Positions 1 to 64,000 of a DNA stretch of 64,000 nucleotides are shown one piece after another. Position numbers and translations under genes: made by a program. How positions within the stretch are numbered: the first letter of the stretch is position 1; every line of letters starts with the position of its first letter. The notes under the pieces were generated by a model. It did not search any database and had not been told where the DNA came from. It saw only the letters and a program-made list of their open reading frames with translations. The stretch lies in IMG/VR virus record IMGVR_UViG_3300035208_001992. One strand, written 5' to 3'. Origin of the DNA: a virus (taxonomy: Duplodnaviria; Heunggongvirae; Uroviricota; Caudoviricetes).

Positions 1-58
1 TCAATATGTATTCATATGCAGTTGGCGGTGCAACAGTTTCACACGCGTGCCTAGCCAC
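1..58 (-). CDS. MARH-tag family protein, 5' end only (MARHACETVAPPTAYEYIL..., runs off window)
   Basis: Read by hand: GTG GCT AGG CAC GCG TGT GAA starting at 58. Overlaps the TAG (51-53) of the upstream mini-gene by 8 nt. Confidence 0.8.
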   Translation of the reverse strand, partial: MARHACETVAPPTAYEYIL

Positions 59-221
59 TGACTTGTGCCTGATGAGCAGCAGCCATGACTCGGATCTCGA
101 AGAGGCTATAATCGATTTGCAAGATGTCTAGAGATCTTCTTGCTCCATGGTGGAAGATTGACCGAAGCGGCTGTGGTAGGTCAACTGACCGATCTGGAAC
201 TTCACAGGCGTGTCTTGACAT
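51..221 (-). CDS. MARH-tag mini-protein, 56 aa (MSRHACEVPDRSVDLPQ...QVSG), not in ORF track
   Basis: ATG TCA AGA CAC GCC TGT GAA GTT CCA at 221 with AAGGGAG SD 9 nt upstream. Open to TAG at 51-53, which overlaps the next tagged start. Confidence 0.75.
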   Translation of the reverse strand: MSRHACEVPDRSVDLPQPLRSIFHHGARRSLDILQIDYSLFEIRVMAAAHQAQVSG

Positions 222-919
222 GGTACGTGCTCCCTTCTCAATTTGTAGATGTATTTGCGAAATTGACGAAAGCTTAGTCGCCCATGAGCTAACAGCGCTT
301 CAACTGGTATCTCATGCAGTTTCTTCGTGTAACCGTCACGCCAAAGTATTGTGCTACGTCCGTCACAGGTCTTCGTGCCAAGCATTCCGCGTGTCATACA
401 CCTGTTTTCAGAACGCAGCCAGATAAGGACGTTGGCGGCCACTGCTGGAATGATGAGATCAGCATGGTGCTCAATCACGTCTTGCCACGAATTGAACTGG
501 CTTGCGTCAAAATCAAATTCTTCAGCTTTGTCAGTTTCAGTTATCGTGTTGCCAACGATTGAGTACTTGCGTATTGTGATCTTTGGCTTATACGTGTCTG
601 AGCATACGTCAACCAGTGACATCGATCGATAGCTTTTTCCGAACTGCTCCAATTCGAGCCTTATGCTCATGACACCAGTTCGTCTAACATCTTTGCGACG
701 TTCAGCTGTTTCTACTAGCTCGTTGATGCGCTCTTCGACTGACTCATTCACGCGTGCATCATGGCTCATGTCATTGGCTTCAACGTCATCGTATGTAGGA
801 ACCACGCCACATGACTTGACAGAGAAGTCAAGACCGAGTATTCGCACAATGCCACTTCGCAATTTGTAAGCCTTGCGCAGTTGAGCGTGAGGATCTATCT
901 CACGCATGTGCCTAGCCAT
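128..919 (-). CDS. MARH-tag family protein (MARHMRE), 263 aa
   Basis: ORF track; N-terminal tag; 8-nt ATGGCTAG overlap with upstream stop; family blocks IVRILGLDF and LLAHGRLS. Confidence 0.85.
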   Translation of the reverse strand: MARHMREIDPHAQLRKAYKLRSGIVRILGLDFSVKSCGVVPTYDDVEANDMSHDARVNESVEERINELVETAERRKDVRRTGVMSIRLELEQFGKSYRSMSLVDVCSDTYKPKITIRKYSIVGNTITETDKAEEFDFDASQFNSWQDVIEHHADLIIPAVAANVLIWLRSENRCMTRGMLGTKTCDGRSTILWRDGYTKKLHEIPVEALLAHGRLSFRQFRKYIYKLRREHVPCQDTPVKFQIGQLTYHSRFGQSSTMEQEDL

Positions 920-1733
920 TTCGGAAGCAGTATGTTGTTGCGAGTCTTCGGTTGCGTCTGAAATCGCTACCGCAGATCTCAGTCAATTTTGCTGATACAG
1001 CATTAGCAACGTCAAAATCGATTTTGCCATCGTTCACTGGTATCGCGAGTCTTTCTGCGCACCTTTTGAAATCTCTTCCACGCATGACAAATTCTGCGTT
1101 GTTGTCATCTTGGCTTTTTGCATAGCAAGTGCTCTCCAACGTTTCGGCGTCGCGCGCGTCATAGAGGCATCGATATAACACAGAGCTAAGTATGATCTCG
1201 CCATTGCCGGACGTATCAACATCGTTGATCAAGTCAAGACATAAATCAGCGTCTTTCATCGTATACACGTGTTTCAAACCGCGTGATGTTAGCAGTTGTG
1301 AAACCATAGTGTTTGTCATGCCGCGCTCGTCCAGCGTTAAGTACTTCAACAGCGTTTCAGGCGTGTTACCAAATTTCATTTGATCAGCTAGAAACGGATG
1401 CGCTGCATGCAATTTGTAGTTGTAAGCGTCAGAATTTGGACAACAATAAGTTGTTTGACCGCCTACTGACCAATCTCTTGGCAATGCAGAAATTAGACCT
1501 GCAACGTCATGTATTGGACCAAGCAATCTCCAGTTGATGAGTCGCCGTGCTTCACCACGAGTAGTCAAGCCAACTACTAAAGCTTCAATACTTTCCTCAT
1601 CAACGTCATAGACGCTGAACAATTCAATGTCGATACCGCAGAAACGCATGATAGGACGATCTTTGACAGCACGCACAACATCAGTTGCTGTTGTGCAATC
1701 TGGATCGTATTGCTCAGCCATTCGTCTAGCCAT
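912..1733 (-). CDS. MARH-tag family protein (variant MARRMAE), 273 aa
   Basis: GGAG SD; ATGGCTAG overlap; family blocks MRFCGIDIEL and VNDGKIDF. Confidence 0.85.
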   Translation of the reverse strand: MARRMAEQYDPDCTTATDVVRAVKDRPIMRFCGIDIELFSVYDVDEESIEALVVGLTTRGEARRLINWRLLGPIHDVAGLISALPRDWSVGGQTTYCCPNSDAYNYKLHAAHPFLADQMKFGNTPETLLKYLTLDERGMTNTMVSQLLTSRGLKHVYTMKDADLCLDLINDVDTSGNGEIILSSVLYRCLYDARDAETLESTCYAKSQDDNNAEFVMRGRDFKRCAERLAIPVNDGKIDFDVANAVSAKLTEICGSDFRRNRRLATTYCFRNG

Positions 1734-2445
1734 GTGTTAGCTCCACTGCTTTTTCGAATACCAGATCTGTATTGAACTTACCATGTCCGTCTGTGATGTC
1801 ATCTATGCTGTACTTCAGCTTCATACGAGTGTTTTCAACGCGTATGACTTCGTCAAGAGACTCACCAGGCAGAATTGACGTCATAGTGTTGAAGCAGAAC
1901 GGGCCATCTCCACCGCTTAGCCAAGGTTTTGCTAGTTCACAATCGTTTGAAAGGCGCACGCGCAGCTCCTTTATGAAGTCTGCACCAAGTATGTACGTGG
2001 CTGAACGCTCGGGCAAGCCTGCAACCAACGCCGCTAAGCTTGAAACGCATTTGACGACTGAGTGTTCGCTCGGATCTATTGCTTGGCAGAAGAAAGCGCC
2101 TTCTTGGATGCGCTTTGGCGCCGATACGTAATAGAAACGTCGGTCACATGCTGAAGTGAAGATGAATTGCTTGAATGGTCGTGCTGGCTCGCCTTTCATT
2201 GTTAGTGTCAAGAGAGGCTTCCACGCGTCACTGCCACGCGGAAACAGCATACTAGCTGCTGTGTCTTCAACAGCGAAATTTGAGAGCGCATATTGAAGCA
2301 TTGTCAAGTGACTTGACGAGTTGACATTGTAGTCGACACCATGGAGTTTGATTTCTTTGCTTGCGATTAGCATGTCAATGATCAACGCTGCGTACTCAAT
2401 AGGATCGCTGGGTACAGTGTTGCGTTCACATGCATGCCTAGCCAT
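1726..2445 (-). CDS. MARH-tag family protein (MARHACE), 239 aa; start corrected from 2460
   Basis: ATG at 2445 with GGAG 9 nt upstream and 8-nt overlap with TAG at 2438-2440. Confidence 0.85.
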   Translation of the reverse strand: MARHACERNTVPSDPIEYAALIIDMLIASKEIKLHGVDYNVNSSSHLTMLQYALSNFAVEDTAASMLFPRGSDAWKPLLTLTMKGEPARPFKQFIFTSACDRRFYYVSAPKRIQEGAFFCQAIDPSEHSVVKCVSSLAALVAGLPERSATYILGADFIKELRVRLSNDCELAKPWLSGGDGPFCFNTMTSILPGESLDEVIRVENTRMKLKYSIDDITDGHGKFNTDLVFEKAVELTHG

Positions 2446-3148
2446 CGTTGTCGGCTCCAAGCAGCTTCAATGCACTAGCGATGTTCGATCGCAATTGATC
2501 ATTGCTCGAGATGAGCACACCTGTGCTATGCAATGATCCAACAAGATCTCGCAACGTGTTCTCAAGCTGCTTCACGCGATCGCTATATGCTTGCAAGGTA
2601 CGTGGCGGCTCGAAATCGATGTTGAAGATGCGTCTACGAGTGTCTTTTCTTGACGCAAGCAGAAACTTCTTGCTGTCCTGGTTAAGATCACCGACCAACG
2701 TCAATTGACATACTGCGCTTAAGCTTTCAAAATACTCACCATTGTTAGTGAATACGATGCGCTTGGATCCATTGCCACTATTGATCTGGTTGAATATCAT
2801 TGAAGCAGGATTGCGTACAGAGTCAAAATGAGCAGCACTCTTCAAGTACGGAAACAGATCAAGGTATATGATGATCCCTTGAGCGCTTGCGCGACCAAGC
2901 AATGGGTTACCTGGGCCATTGCCATCATGCGTCACGGACACGTTGTGTAGGCAAAACACAGACGGATCTATGCGTGTCCGCCAGCGTCCAGGTATGACTA
3001 AGACGCTACGTGACTTGTCTGCGTCAGCATAAGCAGTGATAAGCCATGATGCGAATGAACTGAACAACGCAGCATTGCTCTCAATTCCAGTCAAATCAAT
3101 GACCGTGTGCTGTTGAAGCGTTCCAAACATGTTTTCAAGATCAAGCAT
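2438..3148 (-). CDS. hypothetical protein, 236 aa; the only gene in the array without the tag
   Basis: ORF track; GGAG SD; ATGCTTGA 8-nt overlap; contains LTLVGDLNQD. Confidence 0.8.
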   Translation of the reverse strand: MLDLENMFGTLQQHTVIDLTGIESNAALFSSFASWLITAYADADKSRSVLVIPGRWRTRIDPSVFCLHNVSVTHDGNGPGNPLLGRASAQGIIIYLDLFPYLKSAAHFDSVRNPASMIFNQINSGNGSKRIVFTNNGEYFESLSAVCQLTLVGDLNQDSKKFLLASRKDTRRRIFNIDFEPPRTLQAYSDRVKQLENTLRDLVGSLHSTGVLISSNDQLRSNIASALKLLGADNDG

Positions 3149-4172
3149 TCAGTACTCCAAGTGTTAGTGAATCGCCCATCGCGACTATTCGATTTCTACC
3201 GCGAGTTTCGCGGGTGATGAAATTCATCTCATCAATTACGATTGTTGGATGGTCTTCATCTTTGTCATGCGCTTGTCCATGAGCGTCACGTCTCGCTCGT
3301 CTTTGCTGCTGCGCGTAGTCACCAAGCGCGAACATCGATTTTCCGGCACCTCGTGAAATGGTCATAGCTCCAACGTGCTTGTCACCTATGACCTTCATGA
3401 TAAACTCTGATTGACGCTTCTCTTCACGCGCAATACCAAGTTTGACGACTTCAACTGCTGCTCGTGCAGCATCACCCTGCAGGTTGCCGTCAACTAATAG
3501 ATCCTTCAGCATCCAGCTATGCTTGTTCTTTTCTTTGCCGCCAACAAGTTCAATGAATTCAATACGTACATCGTCATCATTGCTGCCAACGTGAGTCAAG
3601 TTCATAAAGTTTCGTACAACATACTCAGTGCCCTTGATTGAGTAGTTAGTCAGTTGATCTTTCTTTGCCAAGTATGTGAACAAATAACTCAAGTAGTTCT
3701 CAAGTATGCTCAACTTTATGCTCATTGGCAACTGGTCTGTCTCTGCTTGCAAGTCGCTCGAACGCACAGAGTGCATTGACGGCATATTCATTAAGCGACT
3801 GCCAATAGGCGCAAACCACATGCTACCGCTCATCGACTCGACGTTGATGAAAGGCTCAATGACAGGTTGCCCGCCAATTTTGATGATCTTGCCGTTCAAC
3901 GATAGTGCTGTAAGCACGAACGGGCGCATTGACGCTTGCATTGACAGATATGGTACGCACGTTTTTGAATGCTCAAGCCAATTGACGATGTTTTCTATGA
4001 ATGGCACGTCTTTCTGATCTGTCATATACGCGTAATCGATCCCATTGAACGGTGCTTGTGAGATCAAACAGATTTTGACGCCACAAAGACTGATGAACAA
4101 GTTGTCAGCAACCTTGCGATCAATACTGCGGATCACTGCGTATTCATCGACTTCGTGCATATGTCTGGTCAT
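3141..4172 (-). CDS. MARH-tag family protein (MTRHMHE), 343 aa, with P-loop-like C-terminal extension
   Basis: AGGAG SD; ATGA overlap; blocks ISLCGVKI and LLVDGNL; tail contains RGAGKS...IVIDE...IVAMGD. Confidence 0.85.
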   Translation of the reverse strand: MTRHMHEVDEYAVIRSIDRKVADNLFISLCGVKICLISQAPFNGIDYAYMTDQKDVPFIENIVNWLEHSKTCVPYLSMQASMRPFVLTALSLNGKIIKIGGQPVIEPFINVESMSGSMWFAPIGSRLMNMPSMHSVRSSDLQAETDQLPMSIKLSILENYLSYLFTYLAKKDQLTNYSIKGTEYVVRNFMNLTHVGSNDDDVRIEFIELVGGKEKNKHSWMLKDLLVDGNLQGDAARAAVEVVKLGIAREEKRQSEFIMKVIGDKHVGAMTISRGAGKSMFALGDYAQQQRRARRDAHGQAHDKDEDHPTIVIDEMNFITRETRGRNRIVAMGDSLTLGVLNA

Positions 4173-4821
4173 ACGTCATTCTCCTGTTTGTCAGCATACT
4201 TCAGTTTGTGTTGGCAATAAAGCTCAACTAACTTTGTTGGTGATACCGCTTTGTCAACTATGAGATCATCAAGCGGCACATACGTTGATGACCAGCACTG
4301 TTGTTGTTGATCAACATGAAACCTCAACACGTCCGATGGATTATTGACTTGAAACATCGACATAGTCAGCGGTTCGGTTTTGAGGATCAAGAAATCCACA
4401 GTGTCGAGCTTGTCATCGCCAGCTAGACACTCATAATCATTCTTGTGCACGCAAACGCCATCGATCCAAGCGTCAACAACTGCTACCTTAGCTATACTCA
4501 TTCGCGTGCTTTGTGGCAGCGCATCAACAAAGCGTTGCGGCGTTGTAGCGGTAACTAGTGCGTCATTGACGACAAAGCAATCATCAGCAACTGCCGACGT
4601 TAGATACAAGCGCCGACCTAGCTTGCATTCTAGCAACAGCGATCCGACGACCAATAAACTGCTTTGATGAATAGTGCCTGCTGACAAAAATGTCTAAGAC
4701 GGCTATCGTCTGAGTAAACCATCATGAATTCTATTCCGTAGATTTCAACCATGTTCGACTTACTGATCGCCGAAACTAGTTGAATCCACAGAGGTCTTTG
4801 CTCATACGCATGACGCGGCAC
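4169..4821 (-). pseudogene. MARH-tag family gene (MPRHAYE) split by a 1-nt frameshift (ORFs 4630..4821 and 4169..4687)
   Basis: The tagged 63-aa ORF overlaps an untagged 172-aa ORF carrying the family blocks QRFVDALP and LDDLIVDK. Adding one T to the T5 run at 4686-4690 gives a 217-aa protein of typical family length. Confidence 0.7.
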
Positions 4822-5446
4822 CGGTCACCTCATCGTCAAAGTAGTGGACCATGCTATTGAATTTCAGCTGCTCAACAAATTTTGTCGTAGCCTGTCCCGT
4901 GGCATCTATGATCTCCAAGTCATTTATGTTCAGACCATGAACACTCGAGTATCGCGTCGACAAGCTAAATTCGCCTTCTAGTGACTGCAATGTGAGTATT
5001 AGGTCGCCGTCGACCTCACCATGGTTGATTCGACGATGTACGGCTGTTGTCACTATCTTATGCAAAACGCTAGTGACGATCTCAATTGGAAAGCTGTCGA
5101 TCACTTGCTGTGCGTTTGAACCCATGAATTGAATCACAATGCTACCAAAGTCATGCATTGCCGTGCCAGAGTCTTTATTGACGTTCAACAATGATACTGC
5201 ATGTGCTTTGTTTGGCCATGAGAGCGTCAAATAGTCTGGGTCGAACATGAGCTGCTGCGGATCTGGCGTTCGACGATCTGGCATGTTCCATGGACCTACG
5301 TGTGCACGTATCTTCAAGTCCTTGGCTACCATCAAAAATTGACGGCCTAAGAACGTTACTGGTTCTGGGCCGTCATTTACTAGACGTCTTAGCATCTTTG
5401 CGAGATGCTGAGCAGGATTCAGTTCTTCATAGGCATGTCTTGCCAC
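4802..5446 (-). CDS. MARH-tag family protein (MARHAYE, GTG start), 214 aa
   Basis: AAGGAG SD; first gene after the promoter-like motif; its TGA stop lies in codons 6/7 of the next tag. Confidence 0.85.
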   Translation of the reverse strand: MARHAYEELNPAQHLAKMLRRLVNDGPEPVTFLGRQFLMVAKDLKIRAHVGPWNMPDRRTPDPQQLMFDPDYLTLSWPNKAHAVSLLNVNKDSGTAMHDFGSIVIQFMGSNAQQVIDSFPIEIVTSVLHKIVTTAVHRRINHGEVDGDLILTLQSLEGEFSLSTRYSSVHGLNINDLEIIDATGQATTKFVEQLKFNSMVHYFDDEVTGAASCV

Positions 5447-5458
5447 TTGCGCTCCTTT

Positions 5459-5497
5459 CTATTGCTAATAGTCATTTACTCAGTCGCAAGTTTACGC
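5459..5497 (-). promoter_or_regulatory. conserved promoter-like motif GCGTAAAC-N10-GTAAAT-N4-ATTAG-N3-TAG, copy 1
   Basis: Same blocks and identical spacing as 13727-13765; spans one of the few intergenic gaps in the array. Confidence 0.65.
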
Positions 5498-6127
5498 ATG
5501 GTTAACGTCTAACATTTTGAATGAATCTTGTAAGATCTTAGCAATTTTAGCATCGTCAATCTCGTGACCAGTCACAATCTCTGCGATGTCATCAACGATC
5601 GCTCTATGTCCATCAGAGCTGATCAATGTCAAGTCGTAAGATTCATTGTCATCACTGAGATTCACGACTACTCGTCTTTTAGCAATGCAACCAGCAACGC
5701 GATAATAGCGAGCTCTCATCAGCACCTTTAGAGACTTCAATCTGTCTGTAAGCGGTAAGTTGTCGATGTAGTGCTGCAAACCAACAGGTGCTTGACTAGG
5801 CCGGCCTTGCACGGCGTTAATCACAGCCGACTCGAAAAGCGTTGTCAATGAACATGGCATCGGCACACGCACAATTGTCGACGTGGTCAGTAATGTACTG
5901 TCGGCTAAACAGGTCCAGCCAGGTTGCAAATAAAAGAAGTCACCAGAATTGTCGAAACCAATTCGGGCGCCAACGCTTATTCTGAGCACTGTGTTAATGC
6001 CAAATAGTCTTACGATGCAATCCACATATTGAATATACTCGAACTCGTTTGTCATCACTGGCCCACGTCGAAACATGCCAACGATGATTTGGTCGATCAT
6101 CAGTTGCTCATGCGCGTGTCTGGCCAT
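5492..6127 (-). CDS. MARH-tag family protein (MARHAHE), 211 aa; start corrected from 6211
   Basis: AGGAGG SD before ATG 6127; 20-nt overlap with upstream TGA at 6108. Confidence 0.85.
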   Translation of the reverse strand: MARHAHEQLMIDQIIVGMFRRGPVMTNEFEYIQYVDCIVRLFGINTVLRISVGARIGFDNSGDFFYLQPGWTCLADSTLLTTSTIVRVPMPCSLTTLFESAVINAVQGRPSQAPVGLQHYIDNLPLTDRLKSLKVLMRARYYRVAGCIAKRRVVVNLSDDNESYDLTLISSDGHRAIVDDIAEIVTGHEIDDAKIAKILQDSFKMLDVNHA

Positions 6128-6659
6128 TGCGTTGCCTCCTAGGCTTCGTGATCCTAGCGATGATAGGAGCGATCTTGTTTTCGTTGATACTGCCGTCGCT
6201 GATGACGTCACTTAATTTCACTATTTGCGACTTGAGCGTTTTGTTGAAACCAATGATTACACTACGGCTGTATCCAACGATCGTACTGTTACGCGTGTAG
6301 CAGACACTGACGTATTTGTTGTCTTTCACGCCCATCTCTTCGATGCATGCTCTGACCGCATGCTCGATTAGATCCACTTTGATTTCGCTCAACACATTCT
6401 TGATCACGCTTTTAGCGATGTTCAACGGATCAACTATGGTGCTAGTGAAAAGATAGTAGTAGGCGTCATCTCCTTGGTGAAGATGAGCAACATCGACTCT
6501 GCCACGCCAAGGAGCTGCGCTTGGAACAGCATACAGCAGACCAACAGGATCCAAACGCAATTCAAAGATGATGCCGTCCAGCTTGAACTCTTGACCAGCG
6601 CATACAGCGCGTCGCACGCGCGAGCCGTTAGTTAGTGGTTCATACGCGTGTCTACTCAT
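6108..6659 (-). CDS. MARH-tag family protein (MSRHAYE), 183 aa; start corrected from 6716
   Basis: ATGAGTAG 8-nt overlap; blocks FKLDGIIF and VISDGSIN. Confidence 0.85.
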   Translation of the reverse strand: MSRHAYEPLTNGSRVRRAVCAGQEFKLDGIIFELRLDPVGLLYAVPSAAPWRGRVDVAHLHQGDDAYYYLFTSTIVDPLNIAKSVIKNVLSEIKVDLIEHAVRACIEEMGVKDNKYVSVCYTRNSTIVGYSRSVIIGFNKTLKSQIVKLSDVISDGSINENKIAPIIARITKPRRQRNGQTRA

Positions 6660-7299
6660 CTTCGTGCAACCTCTCGCGGTAACTGCCAAGCACCCACTTA
6701 AGAACAGCCTCACCATCGATTTTGCTATTCACTGTGATGTCGGCTATTTTGACGTTTGTTCTTTCTATGTCAAAATGCCTTTTGTAGCGCTTATTTGGTG
6801 GCAGCCATAACGCAGATAAGCTTAAGCGATTATTGCACCATACAGAAAAGATCAAATCGCTATGCACATACATACTATGCGTGCGCCTAACAGCTATGGA
6901 ACTTGGCAGTTCATCGTTGAACGGTAGCAAACTTGATTTCACGAGCATATCAATGATGCTTGACTTCGTTGGGCCAGGCATGCCATTCGTCAGCTGCATC
7001 TCATCAGTTGCAGTAAAGGCATACATTCCAGTGGCAGTGCGCGAGTACACAATGTCATTGCGCTCATAAGATTCACGTGCAATGTTGATCTTTGACAATG
7101 ATTCGGGATCATGACAGTCAATCATCACACGTCCAAAATCATGCGTGGCTTCTTCACCATCTTCATTCATGAAATAGAATGGCTCTTCATGTGAGCAGAC
7201 TAAGGCATTCAACCCACAAATTTCGATTGTTGCTGGCTTGCTGACAAGTGATCGAGCCCAGTCTATAGGTTGCATTCGTTCGTACATGTGCCTAGCCAT
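6652..7299 (-). CDS. MARH-tag family protein (MARHMYE), 215 aa; start corrected from 7356
   Basis: GGAG SD; ATGGCTAG overlap with the mini-gene stop at 7292. Confidence 0.85.
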   Translation of the reverse strand: MARHMYERMQPIDWARSLVSKPATIEICGLNALVCSHEEPFYFMNEDGEEATHDFGRVMIDCHDPESLSKINIARESYERNDIVYSRTATGMYAFTATDEMQLTNGMPGPTKSSIIDMLVKSSLLPFNDELPSSIAVRRTHSMYVHSDLIFSVWCNNRLSLSALWLPPNKRYKRHFDIERTNVKIADITVNSKIDGEAVLKWVLGSYRERLHEDE

Positions 7300-7456
7300 G
7301 TGATGCAGTCTCCATTTGTTCGCGATCATGCAGCATTCGAGCAAGCACTTGGTCACTAACTTGCAAGGTTTGGAATGGCTTCAAAGTTCCGTTCATTTGC
7401 ATAAAACTCACAACGATTTCTACTATGCCTGGCACTTCACATGCGTGCCTAGCCAT
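7292..7456 (-). CDS. MARH-tag mini-protein, 54 aa (MARHACEVPGIVEIV...ASHG), not in ORF track
   Basis: Translated by hand; coupled at both ends by ATGGCTAG overlaps. Confidence 0.8.
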   Translation of the reverse strand: MARHACEVPGIVEIVVSFMQMNGTLKPFQTLQVSDQVLARMLHDREQMETASHG

Positions 7457-7631
7457 GAGACATCAACCTAGCTGCAGGTGGCCTGATCTGTATAAGTGAT
7501 TCGGTGAACTGTTTGAACATCTTCTCAGCATCGACTTGCCCAAACGTTGACACTTCGTCAAACGCGCACCAAACTCGCGTGCCGCCGCGCAATCGCTGAA
7601 CATCAGGTACTTCACAACCGTGTCCAGCCAT
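7449..7631 (-). CDS. MARH-tag mini-protein, 60 aa (variant MAGHGCEVPD...); start corrected from 7673
   Basis: AGGAG SD 8 nt before ATG 7631; upstream mini-gene stops at the TGA inside the tag (7612). Confidence 0.75.
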   Translation of the reverse strand: MAGHGCEVPDVQRLRGGTRVWCAFDEVSTFGQVDAEKMFKQFTESLIQIRPPAARLMSHG

Positions 7632-7776
7632 TTGAGATCTCCTGTCGACGACGTCTTTCTTCCATTGCTTCATTTATCCATTTTGGTGACAAGTCATAGA
7701 CTCGTATCATGCGCCCGTCATTGCGCTCAATTGTCATGACATTTTCGTCTTTCACTTCTGCGCCGTGTCTAGCCAT
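7612..7776 (-). CDS. MARH-tag mini-protein, 54 aa (MARHGAEVKDENV...GWTRL), not in ORF track
   Basis: GGAGG SD before ATG GCT AGA CAC GGC GCA GAA at 7776; open to TGA at 7612. Confidence 0.8.
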   Translation of the reverse strand: MARHGAEVKDENVMTIERNDGRMIRVYDLSPKWINEAMEERRRRQEISNGWTRL

Positions 7777-8408
7777 TTGGCAACCTCCGCTTCTTTGAAT
7801 TTGTCAAAGCATATAAGTGCTCGCTCGAACAGGAAGTGTTCGTCAAGAGCGCCGTCTTTGATGCATTCATCTAACTTACAAATAGGCATAGGCATGATCA
7901 TGCGTCTGTCACTTGTCATTATCGCAAAGCCGATCAGCAAGTCATGACTACTTAAGTTGTATGTAATCAGCGAACGCAACAACGTATCACGAGAAATGCT
8001 GGTGATTTTTTTGATGCTAGATAAGATGTCGTAGCGCGCGATGATTGAAGATCTGACGTGGCAACCGATTACGTTAGAAATCAAGTTGTCAGGAGCGCAA
8101 TCAATCAACTCTTGCGCGTTAATGCTGGATGGAACATTGACACGATTAGACATGTTGTACGTGCCAGCGCCATCGTCCTCTGTCGAATTGAATCGTGCAA
8201 TAACGCTTTCACCAAGATCATGCCTGAATAACCATGTCACGTTGAGCCATTGACTGTCCGCAATTATGACGCGATCTTCATCGTAATCTGAGCCACAACG
8301 CCTCCACACTTTGCCATTAAGTCCATGCATAGTCGCGTCTATTGGACAAGCTAACGCGTTCATCCAGCGAGTCATTGGTTGACACTGTTCGTATGCGTGT
8401 CTAGGCAT
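7752..8408 (-). CDS. MARH-tag family protein (MPRHAYE), 218 aa; start corrected from 8441
   Basis: ATGCCTAG overlap; blocks QELIDCAP and CIKDGALD. Confidence 0.85.
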   Translation of the reverse strand: MPRHAYEQCQPMTRWMNALACPIDATMHGLNGKVWRRCGSDYDEDRVIIADSQWLNVTWLFRHDLGESVIARFNSTEDDGAGTYNMSNRVNVPSSINAQELIDCAPDNLISNVIGCHVRSSIIARYDILSSIKKITSISRDTLLRSLITYNLSSHDLLIGFAIMTSDRRMIMPMPICKLDECIKDGALDEHFLFERALICFDKFKEAEVAKWLDTAQK

Positions 8409-9057
8409 GGGTAGTATACAGCTTTCCAAATACAGCTTCAATCTGGTCTTTGGTTTGCTGCTTGAACGACAAGACCAAACGCATTATTCTATAGCGATCG
8501 AAATCACCATCACGCAACAGCGACGACAATGGAGCGCTTGCTGTTTCGGAGACGTTGAAGTGCGTGCTTGTCGCGCCAATCACAGCAAATTTTACATGCA
8601 ACGCGTCTTGCGCGTCTTCACTGATGACAACGTCCATCTTTGAGACGCAGTCACTCACATAGCTACTACGCCGAGACAAATCGAACGTTTTCACAACGTA
8701 ATCCTGAAAGGCATATCGCAGCAACTGCAACTTCTTGGACTTCGGAAGTTCGTCGACAATCTGCTGTGGCTCGCGACAATCCAATGGCTGACGTATACTA
8801 GTGAATCGGTCATTGCCTTCACGCCAGTTAGCCACAAAGTAATCGCGAGAACTCAAATATGATGTGTCAATAATCAAGCTCTTGAATGGGAATGTCATAA
8901 GCATGTCGCACTTGTCTTGATCTGTACCAGGCACTCCAATGAGCCAATCGAGCCTGAGCACACAGTTGACTCCGCAAAGTTTGACGTGTTGCGGTGTAGC
9001 AAGGCACTTCACTTGATCTTCCCATATTTGTCGATGTTCGACTGCATGCCTGCTCAT
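8401..9057 (-). CDS. MARH-tag family protein (MSRHAVE), 218 aa
   Basis: GGAG SD; ATGA overlap; blocks VKLCGVN, QQIVDELP and LLRDGDFD. Confidence 0.85.
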   Translation of the reverse strand: MSRHAVEHRQIWEDQVKCLATPQHVKLCGVNCVLRLDWLIGVPGTDQDKCDMLMTFPFKSLIIDTSYLSSRDYFVANWREGNDRFTSIRQPLDCREPQQIVDELPKSKKLQLLRYAFQDYVVKTFDLSRRSSYVSDCVSKMDVVISEDAQDALHVKFAVIGATSTHFNVSETASAPLSSLLRDGDFDRYRIMRLVLSFKQQTKDQIEAVFGKLYTTHA

Positions 9058-9686
9058 GCTTGTGCTCCAACGCGTTTGTCTTCGACAATTAAGCGCTTTT
9101 CAAGTAGTGACAGACTTAGCAATTTAGGCAAGTTGAACTTACCGTCTTCGCACACGTCAGCAATAGTGATCACAGCAACACCATGATGCTTGACATAGTC
9201 ACTCAACCTTCTTGTGATATAGCATTCTTTGAGGTCACAGCTGACAACGATTGACATCAAGCCAAACGTGATCTCGTATCCGATCGATCTGGCGTACAAT
9301 ATAAGGGCGTTAGTCAAGATCGACTCGAACACATTTCTGAGGTCAGTCGCAGGTATTGCGTCGACCAATGATTGAAGCGACGAGCTGCATATTGCATCAG
9401 CATGTCCGTTGATGTACTTAGATGCGGCGTCATGCTGGTAGATGAAAACATCGCTCTCGTCATCATACCAAGCAATAGCACAACCGTACTTGTTTTGACC
9501 GTAGCTCAACGCAAGACGGTCAGTCGTCTTAGGAACGAGCTCGTCGAACTTGCGCGTTGCATCTGCATTGAACATGCGTGCGCTCAAATCAATCAAGCCA
9601 ACGTGTACAACGTTGTTGTGTTGGATCATTTTGAGAAGATCTTGGTATTTGAGCACTTTACCGATCTCGCACATATGTCTAGCCAT
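9054..9686 (-). CDS. MARH-tag family protein (MARHMCE), 210 aa
   Basis: AGGAG SD; ATGGCTAG overlap; blocks QSLVDAIP and VCEDGKFN. Confidence 0.85.
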   Translation of the reverse strand: MARHMCEIGKVLKYQDLLKMIQHNNVVHVGLIDLSARMFNADATRKFDELVPKTTDRLALSYGQNKYGCAIAWYDDESDVFIYQHDAASKYINGHADAICSSSLQSLVDAIPATDLRNVFESILTNALILYARSIGYEITFGLMSIVVSCDLKECYITRRLSDYVKHHGVAVITIADVCEDGKFNLPKLLSLSLLEKRLIVEDKRVGAQA

Positions 9687-10374
9687 GTCCGATTACTCCT
9701 ACCTCGTCAGATGGCACTGTTACTCCAGCAGTGTTGAATCCGTTCAATGTAAGCTGCTCAAGCACATACTTGTCAACGCGCTTCACGTTCTCGACTAAGC
9801 TAGACATTGTACAGATTTTCTTGGCGTGGACAAGCACATCATAGTCACCGTTGCGCCAGACTAACTTTGTGAATTTGTTGTCGCTTCTTACCATTCTTAT
9901 GTTCGGCAGGTCGAGAATCAATGATGCAACATATTCAACTATGGTGAACAAAATCTGAGACAATGCATAATAGTGTTGTTGCGTGCCAGTGAATTCATCA
10001 ACAAGATCTTGAAGTCTGCCACAAAACGCTGTTGGTAATTTGTACCAGCTATTCTCAGAACCGGAACTGAACAGCTGCATGTCAGGTTGGTATGTGCCAC
10101 GACAAATTCGCGCTAGCGTGACTGATCTCGTAATGAACTTAAGAGGAGCACTAAGATCAAGATTGAGCATCGCAACGCTAACCGGCATGATATTGAACTC
10201 ATTGTCAAGCATGCTCACTTGCTCTTCACCAGACATACGAGTCATTGTGAAGAATGCACTGCTTACTGTGGCATCAATTCCGCAAAGTTTGATCGACAAT
10301 TGCTGGTTGCCGCGATCGAGATACTCCACCAAGCGATCACGTGGACTGACTCGTTCTGTCATGTGTCTAGCCAT
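9679..10374 (-). CDS. MARH-tag family protein (MARHMTE), 231 aa; start corrected from 10407
   Basis: GGAGG SD; TAATG overlap; blocks IKLCGID and QDLVDEF. Confidence 0.85.
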   Translation of the reverse strand: MARHMTERVSPRDRLVEYLDRGNQQLSIKLCGIDATVSSAFFTMTRMSGEEQVSMLDNEFNIMPVSVAMLNLDLSAPLKFITRSVTLARICRGTYQPDMQLFSSGSENSWYKLPTAFCGRLQDLVDEFTGTQQHYYALSQILFTIVEYVASLILDLPNIRMVRSDNKFTKLVWRNGDYDVLVHAKKICTMSSLVENVKRVDKYVLEQLTLNGFNTAGVTVPSDEVGVIGHG

Positions 10375-11129
10375 TACAGCAACCTCCGCGTATGATGCAG
10401 CTTCCAAATTTCGTCGTCTTTCACAGCAATGATGTCTTTCAACTTTGCCTCATCAAATTTCACAGCTTTAGCAGCAGACAGCGTGATGACGTCGACTCGA
10501 CGTTCAGCGCTCGCGTTTGTCATGACGACAAAGTCTTTCTTGACTCGACGTATATGGAATCTAGAGCCTTCCAATGAGTACGCCAGCACATAGTTGAGCA
10601 GCATTCTAGCTAACAGCGCGTCTTTGTCTTTAGCGCTGAGCTCATTCAACTGTTGCTTAATCACGTCCTGTCCAACGACCAGGTTGAATGGTTCTAAATC
10701 GCATGCTGGGTCTACGCGCCCGAACACGCGTCTACCACCATCAAAATTCGAACCATATAGCAAAGTCACCACATCGAATTGGTCGTCGGACGTTGCCGCA
10801 ACAAACGGGACGTCGATCGACGTTGCAGTCTGTGTGGTCGACTTTATTGATGCGAAGAACATTTCAGCAAAGCTACTGTAGCTCTTCCAACCGTCACGCG
10901 TTGTAACTGCATTGATCGGAAAATGAGCAGTGCTTGGATCAGAGCAATCGTCTAGTACGAGCTCAACTGTTTCTCTAAGATTGCTATCGACATATGTAAG
11001 TCTCTTTGCCGCTGAAGTAACGATGATCGGCAATCCATCGATCTCTAACTCGACTGGATCAGCGTACTTGATGAGTGCTTCAGCAAGCATATCTCGTCCA
11101 CAAGCCTTTTCAGTCATATGCCTAGGCAT
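10374..11129 (-). CDS. MARH-tag family protein (MPRHMTE), 251 aa
   Basis: ATGCCTAG overlap; block LEIDGLPI. Confidence 0.85.
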   Translation of the reverse strand: MPRHMTEKACGRDMLAEALIKYADPVELEIDGLPIIVTSAAKRLTYVDSNLRETVELVLDDCSDPSTAHFPINAVTTRDGWKSYSSFAEMFFASIKSTTQTATSIDVPFVAATSDDQFDVVTLLYGSNFDGGRRVFGRVDPACDLEPFNLVVGQDVIKQQLNELSAKDKDALLARMLLNYVLAYSLEGSRFHIRRVKKDFVVMTNASAERRVDVITLSAAKAVKFDEAKLKDIIAVKDDEIWKLHHTRRLL

Positions 11130-11769
11130 GATGCCTCAACAGTTTCTTGCGCTCCAATTCAGCGCGTAAGAACGTGAGCGGATGCTGGTACGACGCAAGT
11201 GTTCTGACGCTGCTGACAACTACATGCGTTGAAAGGAAGAGTGCAGCATCATCATTTCCAATAGGCTTGGCATAGCAAGTTTTTGTTCCTCCATCTTTGC
11301 AAAAGTTAGCGAGTGCTGCCAAGACGCATTTGCAACCAAACCAGAATTTGGTCTCATTGCTTAGCATGTCAAACGCTTCTCGTATGCTATTGACGGATCG
11401 ATATGATACTGCTTGCATCTCAATCGTTGATGACCTAGCCCAATCAGATGCTGTTTCAGCGTTCATCACTGCGATGTAAAACAAGCCAGATCCAAAGTTT
11501 GTGGCGAGGAAAGAATGCCAGTCAGTTGGAAGACGCTTCTCGTCCAAGCTGCCATCTGTCAGTTGCGCGTCACCGAGGTTGAACATCATGTTGGACGACG
11601 TGTTCTTTGCAAAAGCATATGCACTCTTCACAACTGTTTCAACATTAACGCGACATGGACGGACGTTCATTTGCAGATTGCCGAATAGTGGCACGCGTTC
11701 TTCTTGGCATTCGAACACTCGTTTGATCTGGTCTTCGAACGTTACTTGCTCAGCCATGTGTCTAGCCAT
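11122..11769 (-). CDS. MARH-tag family protein (MARHMAE), 215 aa
   Basis: GGAG SD; ATGGCTAG overlap. Confidence 0.85.
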   Translation of the reverse strand: MARHMAEQVTFEDQIKRVFECQEERVPLFGNLQMNVRPCRVNVETVVKSAYAFAKNTSSNMMFNLGDAQLTDGSLDEKRLPTDWHSFLATNFGSGLFYIAVMNAETASDWARSSTIEMQAVSYRSVNSIREAFDMLSNETKFWFGCKCVLAALANFCKDGGTKTCYAKPIGNDDAALFLSTHVVVSSVRTLASYQHPLTFLRAELERKKLLRHHA

Positions 11770-12439
11770 GAAGTGGGCTCCAATTCCGTATCAGTTCATT
11801 GCGTAGTTTAGCATATGGACGATCTGGCTCATGTATGATGCTTGCAACGTCACTAACAATGACGCTACCCTTTTGAGTATCATACAGTTCGATCAATCCG
11901 TCTGCGTTCAAGTGCATTCCAATGCGTTGCGGTACGTTACCGCATGCACCACCGAATTCCTGAGCAACATACATGTTGAGCTCATCTTGGTACTCGCGTG
12001 TGATGAACATGTCTTTGTGACATTTGCTCAAGCAATTAAACGCGTCTTGTATCGACTGCACTTCTAAATATGGCACAAGCTCACTGTCATTTCTTGTAGC
12101 ATACATCCAAGCTAGCGCACTTGGACGTCTTAGCGCAAAATGCTGTGACCTATACGATATGCCGTCCACTGACAGCAGACCATAACGACTCAAATCTTGT
12201 TTGGTCACAATCCTGTCATCGCTTGAAGGCCACATAATATATGATTCAATAATTGGCCTGCTAACTTGGTCAGGCATGTTCACGAACATCTTACGTTCTA
12301 TAGGCTCGCGTTGATTGAGCGACGTGTAGATCTTTATCTTCAGCTCTTTGTTCAACTCGAATGTCTGTGGTTCACTATTGTGTAGGACGCAAAGACAATG
12401 GAAGAAGCTTGGTCTAGTTTCAGTAGCATGCCGACTCAC
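11762..12439 (-). CDS. MARH-tag family protein (MSRHATE, GTG start), 225 aa; closest paralog of 13029..13694
   Basis: AAGGAG SD; aligns by eye with 13029..13694 (LRRPSALAWMY/LRTPNAYARIY; VIVSDVASII/VIISDVSQII). Confidence 0.85.
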   Translation of the reverse strand: MSRHATETRPSFFHCLCVLHNSEPQTFELNKELKIKIYTSLNQREPIERKMFVNMPDQVSRPIIESYIMWPSSDDRIVTKQDLSRYGLLSVDGISYRSQHFALRRPSALAWMYATRNDSELVPYLEVQSIQDAFNCLSKCHKDMFITREYQDELNMYVAQEFGGACGNVPQRIGMHLNADGLIELYDTQKGSVIVSDVASIIHEPDRPYAKLRNELIRNWSPLHG

Positions 12440-12466
12440 AGCAGATCTCCTTTGTTGATGACGTTG

Positions 12467-13036
12467 TTAGAACCAGCGTTCAACCTCTTCAATATCTATC
12501 ATGTGATTCGACACCAGTGCGCTGAGCATTATCTCAGGTGAGACGAAGAGCATCTCTTCAATGAAGCAGTGAGCGACTAGTCCAATGTCTTTTCCATGCG
12601 TGTTAGCAGTCAGGCGAGTCAAATGTGCTTGCCTGACTGCTTTGATCCGCTTACCTTCATGACCAATCTTGCTGAATCTTGATCGTCGCAAAACGCCTTT
12701 GACCATCTCAGTAGCAACTATGCCTTGATGCGCTTCTGACATGTCATCAATCAACTGCTGTGGATCAGCGCTGTGCATGGTAAGTTCTTCGTCAATCATT
12801 ATCATGTACTCGCTGCTCAACTTCTTGTGGCCGATCATGACGTTGAACTCATTGACGCGCTTCAATCGAACAGCATGTGATAACTCCAAGTCACTCTCAT
12901 CGCCTTCGTACACGTTTTCAAATGTGTCGATGACCATAGTGCATTCGATGTCATGGAACATCACCGTTTGCTCTTCACGCAAGTTGCTGGCCAATCGCGT
13001 CCAGCACGACAGTTCTTCTGGCATATGCCTAGACAT
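12467..13036 (-). CDS. MARH-tag family protein (MSRHMPE), 189 aa; start corrected from 13120
   Basis: GGAG SD; ATGTCTAG overlap; block QQLIDDMS. Confidence 0.85.
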   Translation of the reverse strand: MSRHMPEELSCWTRLASNLREEQTVMFHDIECTMVIDTFENVYEGDESDLELSHAVRLKRVNEFNVMIGHKKLSSEYMIMIDEELTMHSADPQQLIDDMSEAHQGIVATEMVKGVLRRSRFSKIGHEGKRIKAVRQAHLTRLTANTHGKDIGLVAHCFIEEMLFVSPEIMLSALVSNHMIDIEEVERWF

Positions 13037-13694
13037 GAGTACGACTCCATTGACGTACAAATTCATCGTAGAATTTGACGTACGGTTCATCAACCTCATT
13101 GATGATCTGTGACACGTCACTAATGATCACTTCTTCACAGGTGGAGTACGTTACGTCTAAGACATCTTCATTTATGACAACATTCAAAAACGTGCGTACG
13201 TCATTTATGCCGCGCTTCACTGAAAGATCTATTGCGAGTCTAAGGAAGAACTCGCTCGTGATGATCACGTCTTTGGTTAGCTTACTCAAGCACTCCCAAG
13301 TTTGTTTGATGGATCTGATGTCTTTGCACAACACGCTTTTGGATCCTTCAGCAAACGGATAAATCCTGGCATATGCGTTTGGCGTTCTCAACAGCATCTC
13401 TTCTGAAGCGAGTGATTCACTAGATGCCATCAGCAAGACGAATCGTGACGCTGGTCCTAATTCTGGATCAGTTCTAGTTTCGTTGGTTGTCCACGTTGCC
13501 CAGCCGTTGACTATTGGATGATGCAGTGTCTTGGATGTGTCTTGTGGGTACAGTATGTCATCAATAGATGCTGGAGTAGCGCTAACGCGCATCTGCAAAT
13601 CACTGTTCAATACGAATATCTGCGGATCGCAGCGTTTGATGTCACATAGGCAATTGTAGATGTCATCACGATCTTCGAATGCATGTCTAGCCAA
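13029..13694 (-). CDS. MARH-tag family protein (MARHAFE, TTG start), 221 aa; first gene of the array
   Basis: AAGGAG SD; lies downstream of the nrdJ terminator and the promoter-like motif. Confidence 0.85.
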   Translation of the reverse strand: MARHAFEDRDDIYNCLCDIKRCDPQIFVLNSDLQMRVSATPASIDDILYPQDTSKTLHHPIVNGWATWTTNETRTDPELGPASRFVLLMASSESLASEEMLLRTPNAYARIYPFAEGSKSVLCKDIRSIKQTWECLSKLTKDVIITSEFFLRLAIDLSVKRGINDVRTFLNVVINEDVLDVTYSTCEEVIISDVSQIINEVDEPYVKFYDEFVRQWSRTHV

Positions 13695-13726: not shown

Positions 13727-13765
13727 CTAGTACTAATCACTATTTACACATTGCATTGTTTACGC
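13727..13765 (-). promoter_or_regulatory. conserved promoter-like motif, copy 2 (head of MARH array)
   Basis: GCGTAAAC-aatgcaatgt-GTAAAT-agtg-ATTAG-tac-TAG; same spacing as 5459-5497. Confidence 0.65.
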
Positions 13766-13785: not shown

Positions 13786-13827
13786 GAAACAAAAGAGGCC
13801 GGCACCCTCATCGGATACCGGCCTCTT
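13786..13827 (-). terminator. intrinsic terminator after nrdJ
   Basis: Minus-strand hairpin AAGAGGCCGGTATCC-GATGA-GGGTGCCGGCCTCTT followed by TTGTTTC. Confidence 0.85.
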
Positions 13828-16500: not shown

Positions 16501-16521
16501 CTACTCACTAGGTATATTTAC
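16501..16521 (-). promoter_or_regulatory. partial copy of the promoter-like motif (GTAAAT-N12-TAG) upstream of nrdJ
   Basis: GTAAAT-atacctagtgag-TAG, with the same 12-nt spacing as the two array copies. Confidence 0.45.
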
Positions 16522-16525
16522 AATG

Positions 16526-59301: not shown

Positions 59302-59330
59302 GAGTTAGTCAATTCTGGACTGACTAACTC
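59302..59330. repeat. perfect 10-bp inverted repeat GAGTTAGTCA-N9-TGACTAACTC
   Basis: Overlaps the stop codon of 59329..61452; weak U-tract, so either a terminator or an operator. Confidence 0.6.
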
Positions 59331-63223: not shown

Positions 63224-64000
63224 GCTATTTTCCTGTATGTAAGCTTGCGTGCTTCTTGCTCATAAGGTTGCCAGTGTATGCCTTTGGCTGCTCGAGCAAG
63301 CGCTTCACGGCTGAACTTCTTAAGAACTTCAATCACGTCATCAACATTGTCGTAAGTTACTCTGACGTGCTTTGCAAAATACATGTAGCCAATGCGAAAA
63401 ACATCTTCATCATTTTCATATGTGCGCTCAACAAGCGCATCTATAACGAGGCCTTCTTCATCACACCAAAGGCCAATGACTCGTTGACGTAAGTCCAGTC
63501 CGCGATCTATGTTACTAAGCTCTCGTATGGCTGCGTCATGTCTAAGTCCATACGGACTCAAGCCGTACTCGTGCGCAAGCTTGAATGGGTACGTATCAGC
63601 TTCGACTGCAACGCGCGCACTAACGTCTTTGTCTTCTATTTCTTCTATTTCTTCTACTTCTTCCGCAGACCCATCAGAAGTTTTGTCGAAGTATTTGGCG
63701 GCAGAAGGAGTGACTTTGAATTTTATGCCGGGCTTGTGAGCTTTGTAGACAGGATGCGTGTTGTTGCCTGGAAGGACGCCATATACAGCTTTGCCAAACG
63801 AATTGGCGTTCCTAAAAACAATGCCATCATAGCCTGAGTTTTTCAGAAGAGCAGCGAATTCAAGACTGCCACCAATCGTTTCACGAAGTATGAAGTATGG
63901 CTTTTTTGGAACATCTCCACCTTTATATTGCTCATAATTGATGCCGTCATTAGGATGATGTATCATCACGTTGCTGCCGTTCACATAGAACGACTGCACA
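63220..64000 (-). CDS. hypothetical protein, probably 3' part only (may start beyond window), with a VSARVAVE linker
   Basis: ORF open to the window edge; linker Val at 63624; contains GYDGIVF. Confidence 0.7.
   Translation of the reverse strand, partial: VQSFYVNGSNVMIHHPNDGINYEQYKGGDVPKKPYFILRETIGGSLEFAALLKNSGYDGIVFRNANSFGKAVYGVLPGNNTHPVYKAHKPGIKFKVTPSAAKYFDKTSDGSAEEVEEIEEIEDKDVSARVAVEADTYPFKLAHEYGLSPYGLRHDAAIRELSNIDRGLDLRQRVIGLWCDEEGLVIDALVERTYENDEDVFRIGYMYFAKHVRVTYDNVDDVIEVLKKFSREALARAAKGIHWQPYEQEARKLTYRKIA

What the first reader, a model, noticed from the sequence alone, without database searches (positions are those of the whole stretch)
128..13694. The long tagged proteins form one deeply diverged paralog family with three further conserved blocks
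Seen by eye in most 180-270 aa members. (1) A beta-hairpin usually ~20-30 aa after the tag: RILGLDF, RFCGIDI, KLHGVDY, SLCGVKI, EIYGIEF, KLDGIIF, EICGLNA, KLCGVNC, KLCGIDA, EIDGLPI. (2) A central helix: QRFVDALP, QQVIDSFP, QHYIDNLP, QELIDCAP, QQIVDELP, QSLVDAIP, QDLVDEFT, QQLIDDMS. (3) A C-terminal block: VISDGSIN, CIKDGALD, LLRDGDFD, VCEDGKFN, LLVDGNLQ, VNDGKID. No catalytic motif is conserved. Inference: a shared scaffold with hypervariable surfaces, expanded to about 18 copies as expected of an arms-race binder family. I do not recognise the family.
Basis: partly seen in the sequence, partly recalled or inferred. Interest (0 to 1): 0.75.

Follow-up and report, generated by a model that had tools for sequence, protein, structure and literature searches.

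The report
New leader-tagged paralog family, jumbo phage
Fourteen of the 18 long genes in this giant-phage gene array are very diverged copies of one previously undescribed protein. It may be cargo loaded into the phage head, as in T4 and phiKZ-type phages, but that role is untested.

Summary
The three blocks are real and lie in the same order. With the leader removed, leave-one-out tests place 13 intact genes and one frameshifted gene in one family. Gene 10374-11129 is unsupported. Three tagged genes (13029-13694, 11762-12439, 11122-11769) form a separate subfamily, and the untagged gene 2438-3148 is unrelated. So there are about 14 copies, not 18.

A family profile searched against 1.84 billion proteins returned only its 14 training members and five tagged, three-block proteins from other metagenome contigs.

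Two AlphaFold models (pLDDT 64 and 83) show the same order of helices and strands. The blocks sit at structural positions: a Gly hairpin turn, a helix-Pro-helix junction, and an Asp-Gly turn before the last helix. The stretch between blocks 1 and 2 varies from 54 to 133 residues.

No Pfam, PHROG, NCBIfam, PDB or BFVD match was found, including the phiKZ internal-head-protein family PF12699.

Function is inferred only. My leading reading (about 40%) is head-packaged, protease-trimmed cargo like T4 internal proteins. A non-virion role is a serious rival, because the array shares a promoter-like element with the ribonucleotide reductase gene.

This scan has already found leader-tagged paralog arrays in other jumbo phages, so the kind is not new. 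The family is.

The parts
12467..13036 (-). Family member (189 aa), leader MSRHMPE
   Evidence: Block test z 7.3, 0/500 shuffles. hhalign P 4e-6 over 164 columns.
9679..10374 (-). Family member (231 aa)
   Evidence: Block test z 4.3, 0/500. hhalign P 1.6e-3, N-terminal part only.
9054..9686 (-). Family member (210 aa)
   Evidence: Block test z 3.6, 0/500. hhalign P 3e-5.
8401..9057 (-). Reference member (218 aa). Block 1 = residues 24-36 (nt 8950-8988), block 2 = 95-120 (nt 8698-8775), block 3 = 172-188 (nt 8494-8544).
   Evidence: Block test z 9.8. hhalign P 1e-9. AF2 model pLDDT 63.7, pTM 0.60.
7752..8408 (-). Family member (218 aa)
   Evidence: Block test z 4.1, 0/500. hhalign P 3e-4.
6652..7299 (-). 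Family member (215 aa)
   Evidence: Block test z 9.1. hhalign P 5.5e-6 over 162 columns.
6108..6659 (-). Shortest member (183 aa). Has a 36%-identical counterpart, P0015, on another contig.
   Evidence: Block test z 7.2. AF2 pLDDT 83.3, pTM 0.77. BLAST to P0015 E 7.5e-24.
5492..6127 (-). Family member (211 aa)
   Evidence: Block test z 5.3, 0/500. hhalign P 1e-3 over 157 columns.
4802..5446 (-). Family member (214 aa), weaker support
   Evidence: Block test z 2.8, 4/500. Clear block 2, QQVIDSFP.
4169..4821 (-). Frameshifted member. The leader and block 1 are in one frame, blocks 2 and 3 in another. The frame change is near a T5 run at 4685-4692.
   Evidence: Block test on the two pieces z 8.0. 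Frames shown, T5 run located. The same sequence is in contigs of two runs.
3141..4172 (-). Family member (343 aa) with a C-terminal extension of about 110 aa
   Evidence: Block test z 7.6. hhalign P 6.6e-5. Block 3 to C-terminus is 114 residues.
1726..2445 (-). Probable member (239 aa)
   Evidence: Block test z 3.0, 1/500. hhalign P 0.018, block 1 region only.
912..1733 (-). Family member (273 aa). Its leader has Arg in place of His (MARRMAE).
   Evidence: Block test z 4.2, 0/500.
128..919 (-). Family member (263 aa)
   Evidence: Block test z 4.8, 0/500. hhalign alone is weak, P 0.067.
10374..11129 (-). Tagged 251-aa protein, membership doubtful
   Evidence: Has EIDGLPI at the block 1 position, but block test z 1.4 (43/500) and hhalign P 0.17.
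13029..13694 (-). Subfamily B member, tagged, lacks the three blocks
   Evidence: 31% identical to 11762-12439, E 2e-28. Block test z 1.3.
11762..12439 (-). Subfamily B member
   Evidence: z 0.1.
11122..11769 (-). Probable third subfamily B member
   Evidence: Colinear 92-column hhalign match to the B pair, P 0.01.
2438..3148 (-). Untagged 236-aa gene inside the array, not a family member
   Evidence: Block test z -0.1, hhalign P 0.67.
13793..13827 (-). Terminator-like hairpin (15-bp stem followed by a T-rich tail) between the reductase gene and the array
13742..13765 (-). Promoter-like bipartite motif GCGTAAAC-N10-GTAAAT upstream of the first array gene
   Evidence: Two exact copies in the window, none in 100 shuffles.
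5474..5497 (-). Second copy of the same motif, upstream of gene 4802-5446

Best explanation
Shown: 13 intact genes and one frameshifted gene in the array are tandem paralogs of one undescribed protein of about 180-270 aa.

Its layout is: a 7-residue leader M-[ASPT]-R-H-[AMG]-x-E; a helix; a beta-hairpin with its Gly at about residue 29 (block 1); a beta region of variable length; a helix-Pro-helix junction (block 2, Q-x-h-h-D-x-h-P); a three-stranded sheet; an Asp-Gly tight turn (block 3); and a C-terminal helix. The conserved positions are core hydrophobics plus turn and cap residues. The blocks therefore mark a shared fold rather than an active site.

Inferred, about 40%: the leader is a T4-CTS-like loading signal that the prohead protease clips after Glu7. 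The diversified bodies would then be cargo that enters the host with the DNA and acts on variable host targets such as defence systems.

I put the homology claim alone at about 0.9.
For: Homology:
- Leave-one-out tests with the leader removed.
- The family profile retrieves only family members out of 1.84e9 proteins. Five of them were not in the training set, come from other contigs, and carry the leader and all three blocks.
- The two AF2 models have the same order of secondary-structure elements.
- Their top-50 structural-neighbour lists share 14 entries, where about 0.05 is expected by chance.
- AF2 with the paralog alignment gives pTM 0.77, against 0.35 for the Atlas single-sequence model.
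- Conserved columns are hydrophobic or G/P/D.
- Block similarity falls with gene distance, Spearman -0.29, p 0.011.

Cargo reading:
- The leader ends [A/M/G]-x-E, which fits the cleavage motifs reported for phiKZ (S-x-E) and SPN3US (A-x-E) prohead proteases (PMC5694885).
- It shares A-R-x-A-x-E with the ARVA[PSV]E motif, which recurs four times inside the polyprotein-like gene 59329-61452 and once in 63220-63999.
- The leader is selected at the peptide level. Its codons vary synonymously, and Arg is kept as CGG or CGT where no upstream stop overlaps it.
- SPN3US paralogs gp53 and gp54 keep identical N-termini carrying a cleavage site while their bodies have diverged to 34% identity.
- T-even internal proteins are a diverse set that share only the CTS (PMC3012670).
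Against: - There are no virion proteomics and no expression data.
- His at leader position 4 is near-invariant (Arg in one gene), while the other motif in this genome always has Val there. That suggests two distinct codes.
- The array lies directly after the ribonucleotide reductase gene, not among recognisable head genes. Its promoter-like GTAAATA element also occurs upstream of the reductase gene. This hints at co-expression with nucleotide-metabolism genes, which in T4 are not late genes (my own knowledge).
- No prohead protease was examined in this window.
- The models were built from overlapping alignments, so they are not independent.
Confidence: 0.4

Rival explanations
1. The family consists of intracellular, non-virion host-takeover or anti-defence proteins made with the nucleotide-metabolism genes. 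The leader would serve another purpose, such as recognition by a phage chaperone, protease or localisation factor, or control of stability.
For: The array follows the ribonucleotide reductase gene. It has its own terminator-bounded unit with a GTAAATA-type promoter-like element, which is also found upstream of the reductase gene. The His-versus-Val difference from the ARVAxE motif is systematic.
Against: The leader ends in the small/hydrophobic-x-Glu pattern typical of prohead-protease sites and closely resembles the ARVAxE sites of the same genome. Promoter timing in this phage is unknown.
Confidence: 0.3
2. The family consists of structural inner-body or core components of the giant head, like the phiKZ inner body, rather than effectors. 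Diversity would reflect relaxed constraint.
For: phiKZ-like phages build their internal head structures from paralog families processed by the head protease.
Against: No member matches PF12699 even at E of 10 or less. Fourteen very different copies with a variable-length insert fit target diversity better than they fit a repetitive structure.
Confidence: 0.12
3. The leader is mainly a translational-coupling device. Its ATGNCTAG sequence holds the upstream stop codon. The bodies would be an ordinary accessory gene family with no addressing function.
For: In most junctions the upstream TAG lies inside leader codons 2-3. The leader's Arg is AGR in 19 of the 21 leaders that have Arg at position 3, against 11-28% AGR elsewhere.
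Against: R-H-[AM]-x-E is kept in genes with their own Shine-Dalgarno sequence and no overlapping stop (12439, 5446, 4821). Synonymous codons vary freely. Related phages keep the same peptide.
Confidence: 0.08
4. The three blocks are chance or convergent motifs, and the proteins do not share ancestry.
For: Pairwise BLAST is non-significant for nearly all pairs. The motifs were defined after inspection.
Against: Leave-one-out tests with controls, recovery of untrained members from 1.84e9 proteins, constant spacing and concordant models.
Confidence: 0.03

Closest known systems
Phage T4 / T-even internal proteins (IPI, IPII, IPIII, Alt) with the capsid targeting sequence
   Same: A short conserved N-terminal leader ending x-Glu sits on otherwise highly diverse proteins encoded in a variable locus. 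In T4 the leader loads them into the prohead and is removed by the head protease, and IPI* blocks a host restriction enzyme (PMC3012670).
   Different: The leader here is 7 residues with a different sequence. The bodies here are mostly one diverged family of 180-340 aa, not unrelated small proteins. There are at least 14 copies. Packaging and cleavage have not been shown. No sequence or fold match was found.
phiKZ / SPN3US internal head (ejection) protein paralogs, Pfam PF12699 (e.g. SPN3US gp53/gp54)
   Same: These are jumbo-phage paralog families whose N-termini stay conserved and carry a protease site while the bodies diverge (gp53/gp54 share an identical first 15 residues at 34% overall identity, PMC5694885).
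   Different: No PF12699 match even at E of 10 or less. SPN3US propeptides are mostly longer than 100 residues, whereas this leader has 7. The predicted fold is different and unassigned.
Leader-tagged paralog arrays noted earlier by this scan in other jumbo phages (e.g. e1-5666510, e1-1956708, e1-183733)
   Same: Many tandem, fast-diverging genes that share a short N-terminal tag in a giant phage.
   Different: The tags and body folds are unrelated. No sequence look-alike of this family exists in the scan's index.

Membership tests
T4-type internal proteins with CTS | Short N-terminal leader ending hydrophobic/small-x-Glu | tested here: met
   M-x-R-H-[AMG]-x-E on every tagged gene.
T4-type internal proteins with CTS | Leader removed by the prohead protease, and protein present inside the capsid | not testable with these tools
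   The phage is uncultivated and has no proteome. No RNA run was listed.
T4-type internal proteins with CTS | Sequence homology to IPI, IPII, IPIII or Alt | tested here: not met
   No Pfam, PHROG or NCBIfam family for any of 25 members.
phiKZ-like internal head proteins (PF12699) | Match to the Pfam model | tested here: not met
   hmmscan of all 25 members at E of 10 or less lists 12 weak families, and PF12699 is not among them.
phiKZ-like internal head proteins (PF12699) | Processing at S/A/G-x-E by the head protease | tested here: inconclusive
   The [A/M/G]-x-E motif is present at residues 5-7, but cleavage is untested.
Type III secretion chaperone / YbjN / HPF-like alpha-beta sandwiches | Clear structural similarity of the C-terminal half | tested here: inconclusive
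   VIA-align Z 3.4-5.5 for both models, below the 7-8 typical of unmatched models.
Chimallin N-terminal domain (201phi2-1 gp105, PhuN) | Clear structural similarity | tested here: inconclusive
   Z 4.2-5.5, rmsd 3.4-5.8 over 75-111 residues, in both lists.

The most novel reading that the evidence does not exclude
The R-H leader may be a second addressing code, distinct from the ARVAxE protease code of the same genome. It would route a purpose-built, diversified binder scaffold to a destination other than the capsid. The scaffold would have a constant C-terminal lobe with a conserved polar cluster (Gln, Asp, Arg/Lys, Asp-Gly) that docks one common partner, and a variable N-terminal beta lobe that recognises targets. 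That would be a phage-encoded repertoire system of a new kind.
Probability: 0.15. Interest if true: 0.8.

Novelty: new variant of a known kind. Interest (0 to 1): 0.45.

Why it matters
If the family is head-loaded cargo, this phage carries one of the largest single-scaffold sets of injected proteins known. It would be a natural library in which the fold is fixed and one lobe varies. That would help in finding anti-defence activities, and the 7-residue leader could become a minimal packaging tag.

Even without a known function, the work defines a new protein family confined to a small clade of uncultivated jumbo phages. It also gives a tested member list, so later work does not treat all tagged genes as one family.

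Tried and rejected
- Pairwise BLAST without the leader found only one significant pair.
- A crude global leave-one-out HMM gave weak signals.
- The word-index homolog search found only the window's own proteins.
- Reductase-anchored searches found nothing in viral contigs. In metagenome contigs they found only bacterial loci without tags.
- Searches of viral contigs with P0017 and P0023 found nothing.
- The leader DNA pattern in viral contigs gave 23 single matches with no array, taken as chance.
- Foldseek against PDB for both models and against BFVD gave no hit at E of 0.001 or below.
- VIA-align wide gave a best Z of 5.8 and 5.3, which is within noise.
- Two ESM Atlas look-ups gave TM of 0.39 or less and no feature hits.
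- A PDB sequence profile search gave nothing.
- Subfamily B against the main family gave P 0.17, although the best local alignment falls on block 2.
- No whole genome is held for this window.
I therefore could not read the rest of the array beyond the window's left edge, or the relatives' contigs.
- No RNA holder was listed for the stretch.
Full report
**Context.** The window belongs to a 305,891-bp contig of an uncultivated phage. It has no near match among GenBank phages and almost no PHROG or Pfam hits outside a helicase and a class II ribonucleotide reductase. From 13694 down to the window's left edge, the minus strand carries an unbroken array of genes. Nearly all begin with M-[ASPT]-R-H-[AMG]-x-E. 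Most junctions are 8-nt overlaps, ATGNCTAG, in which the upstream TAG stop lies inside leader codons 2-3. Genes with their own ribosome-binding site and no overlap still keep R-H-A-x-E, and leader codons vary synonymously, so the leader is selected as a peptide.

**The observation.** MAFFT aligns the three blocks in register in 14 tagged proteins. Spacing is regular:
- the block 1 Gly lies at residue 27-36 in 13 of the 14 window members, and at exactly 29 in six of them;
- block 1 to block 2 is 54-133 residues;
- block 2 to block 3 is 57-91 residues;
- the tail after block 3 is 11-50 residues, except for a 114-residue extension in 3141-4172.

**Is it more than chance?** Pairwise BLAST without the leader detects only 13029-13694 vs 11762-12439 (E 2e-28). 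All other pairs have E of 0.004 or more. Profile methods do see the family.
- *hhalign.* In leave-one-out hhalign (leader stripped, single sequence against a profile of the others), seven window members gave full-length or near-full-length hits at P 1e-9 to 3e-4, and four gave weaker or partial hits. Twenty-five negatives (unrelated window proteins and reversed members) all had P of 0.17 or more.
- *Block test.* In a leave-one-out, colinear three-block PSSM test, 12 of 14 window members beat all 500 shuffles (z 3.6-9.8). Gene 1726-2445 was reached by 1 of 500 shuffles and 4802-5446 by 4 of 500. Gene 10374-11129 failed (43 of 500). The two pieces of the frameshifted gene 4169-4821 scored z 8.0. 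Controls scored z of 1.8 or less. One caveat: block positions came from an alignment that contained the test sequence, though its own segment was left out of the matrix.
- *Library search.* This is the strongest independent test. The 14-sequence profile was searched against 1.84 billion representative proteins. It returned only its 14 training members plus five others (E 4e-5 to 7e-4). Those five carry the leader and all three blocks and come from other contigs: 16.6 kb, 101.8 kb, and short contigs from several sources. P0015 is 36% identical to gene 6108-6659 over its full length. The other four have no close counterpart in the window.

**Who is not a member.** The tagged genes 13029-13694, 11762-12439 and, weakly, 11122-11769 (P 0.01, colinear) form a separate subfamily B. 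Its profile does not match the main family significantly (P 0.17), although the best local alignment falls on block 2. The untagged gene 2438-3148 and the mini-genes of 54-60 aa are unrelated. So the leader is portable across at least two body types plus short peptides. The main family has 13 intact members, one frameshifted member and one doubtful member in this window, not about 18.

**Structure.** AF2 with the paralog alignment gave pLDDT 63.7 and pTM 0.60 for 8401-9057. For 6108-6659 it gave pLDDT 83.3 and pTM 0.77, against pTM 0.35 for the Atlas single-sequence model of the same protein. Both models have the same order of elements:
1. helix 11-20;
2. a hairpin with the block 1 Gly at its turn;
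3. further strands, poorly predicted and of variable length;
4. a short helix starting at the block 2 Gln (Lys in 6108-6659), then a break at the Pro position;
5. a long helix;
6. three antiparallel strands;
7. a mini-hairpin with the block 3 Asp-Gly at its turn;
8. a C-terminal helix.

Conserved columns beyond the leader are hydrophobic, or Gly, Pro or Asp. There are two further semi-conserved positions: an Asp before block 2 and a basic residue about 25 residues after it. This fits a shared scaffold without an obvious catalytic motif. The two models' top-50 structural-neighbour lists share 14 entries, against about 0.05 expected by chance. However, the models were built from overlapping alignments.

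**Known families.** No member matches Pfam, PHROGs, NCBIfam or PDB sequences. PF12699, the phiKZ-type internal head protein family, is absent even at E of 10 or less. Foldseek against PDB and BFVD gave nothing at E of 0.001 or below. The exhaustive VIA-align search peaked at Z 5.8 and 5.3, below the level usual for unmatched models. The recurring weak neighbours are small alpha-beta sandwiches: type III secretion chaperones, ribosome hibernation factors and the chimallin N-terminal part. I treat the fold as unassigned.

**How it most likely works.** The body family is established. Its role is inferred.

The leader ends in small/hydrophobic-x-Glu, the kind of site reported for phiKZ and SPN3US prohead proteases (PMC5694885). 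It shares A-R-x-A-x-E with the ARVA[PSV]E motif, which recurs four times inside the polyprotein-like gene 59329-61452 and once in 63220-63999. I confirmed only that the motif is present. SPN3US gp53 and gp54, and the T-even internal proteins, show the same logic: a conserved leader on diverged cargo. My leading reading (about 40%) is therefore head-loaded, protease-trimmed cargo whose variable N-terminal lobe addresses different host targets.

Three things count against it. The His-versus-Val difference from the other motif is systematic. The array follows the reductase gene behind a strong terminator-like hairpin. It is also preceded by a bipartite motif, GCGTAAAC-N10-GTAAAT, found twice in the array. 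The GTAAATA part of that motif also sits upstream of the reductase gene, which hints at co-expression with nucleotide-metabolism genes. A non-virion effector role (about 30%) therefore remains a serious rival.

**Population data.** Contigs from a landfill run and a groundwater run hold the 14 kb identically, including the frameshift, but they may be the source of this DNA. A wastewater run holds fragments 95-99% alike. Of the 23 listed differences, 13 are synonymous and 10 are not. All four in 912-1733 (codons 210-226) are non-synonymous, and 7 of 8 in 11122-11769 are synonymous. This fits functional genes, but it is too little to test for an arms race. One low-depth contig skips 9676-10363, exactly one start-to-start cassette between two leader junctions. 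Block similarity falls with gene distance (Spearman -0.29, p 0.011). Both observations fit growth and loss by unequal recombination at the conserved junctions.

**Novelty.** The kind of system is known from T4 and phiKZ-type phages: leader-tagged, diversified paralogs in a giant phage. This scan has met it several times on other DNA. The family itself, its fold and its leader are new and are confined to a small clade. I rate it a new variant of a known kind, of moderate interest.

**Limits.** I could not read the rest of the array, the relatives' gene neighbourhoods or the protease.

Noticed in passing
window 13793-13827 (-), 13742-13765 (-), 5474-5497 (-), 16515-16522 (-): A strong terminator-like hairpin follows the reductase gene. 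The array is preceded by GCGTAAAC-N10-GTAAAT, which has a second exact copy before gene 4802-5446. GTAAATA also lies in the intergenic region upstream of the reductase gene. Two of its three minus-strand copies in 64 kb are intergenic.
   Followed up: partly
window 9676-10363: One low-depth (2x) contig of a wastewater run joins 9675 to 10364. That deletes exactly one start-to-start cassette (gene 9679-10374) between two leader-coding junctions that share 11 identical bases. It suggests cassette gain and loss by recombination at the junctions. The evidence is weak.
   Followed up: partly
window 4685-4692 (-): A T5 run lies where the reading frame of family member 4169-4821 changes. This could be a pseudogene, an assembly error or slippage. 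The same sequence is in contigs of two runs, which may be the source of this DNA.
   Followed up: partly
window 7612-7776, 7449-7631, 7292-7456, 51-221 (-): Four overlapping mini-genes of 54-60 aa keep only the leader (one has a degenerate form, MAGHGCE). Three of them continue with CEVP after the leader's His/Gly residues.
   Followed up: no
window 59329-61452 and 63220-63999 (-): Five in-frame copies of ARVA[PSV]E: four inside the 707-aa ORF at spacings of about 120-150 codons, and one in the next-but-one ORF. The core A-R-x-A-x-E is shared with the array's leader.
   Followed up: partly
leader codon 3 of the array genes: The leader's Arg is AGA or AGG in 19 of the 21 leaders with Arg at position 3, against 11% in the large genes and 28% in the array bodies. 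The bias comes from the overlapping upstream TAG stop.
   Followed up: yes
window 13853-16357 (-); loci L001-L012: The closest relatives of the phage's class II ribonucleotide reductase in metagenome contigs (about 55% identity) sit in bacterial loci next to gyrase-like genes. This is a possible but untested hint about the source lineage or host.
   Followed up: no
window 3141-3480 (-): Member 3141-4172 carries an extra C-terminal extension of about 110 aa with a highly charged Gln/Arg/Asp-rich stretch that is absent from the other members.
   Followed up: no
One is an Asp in the beta region before block 2 (71%). The other is a basic residue about 25 residues after block 2 (Arg or Lys in 17 of 19).
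   Followed up: partly
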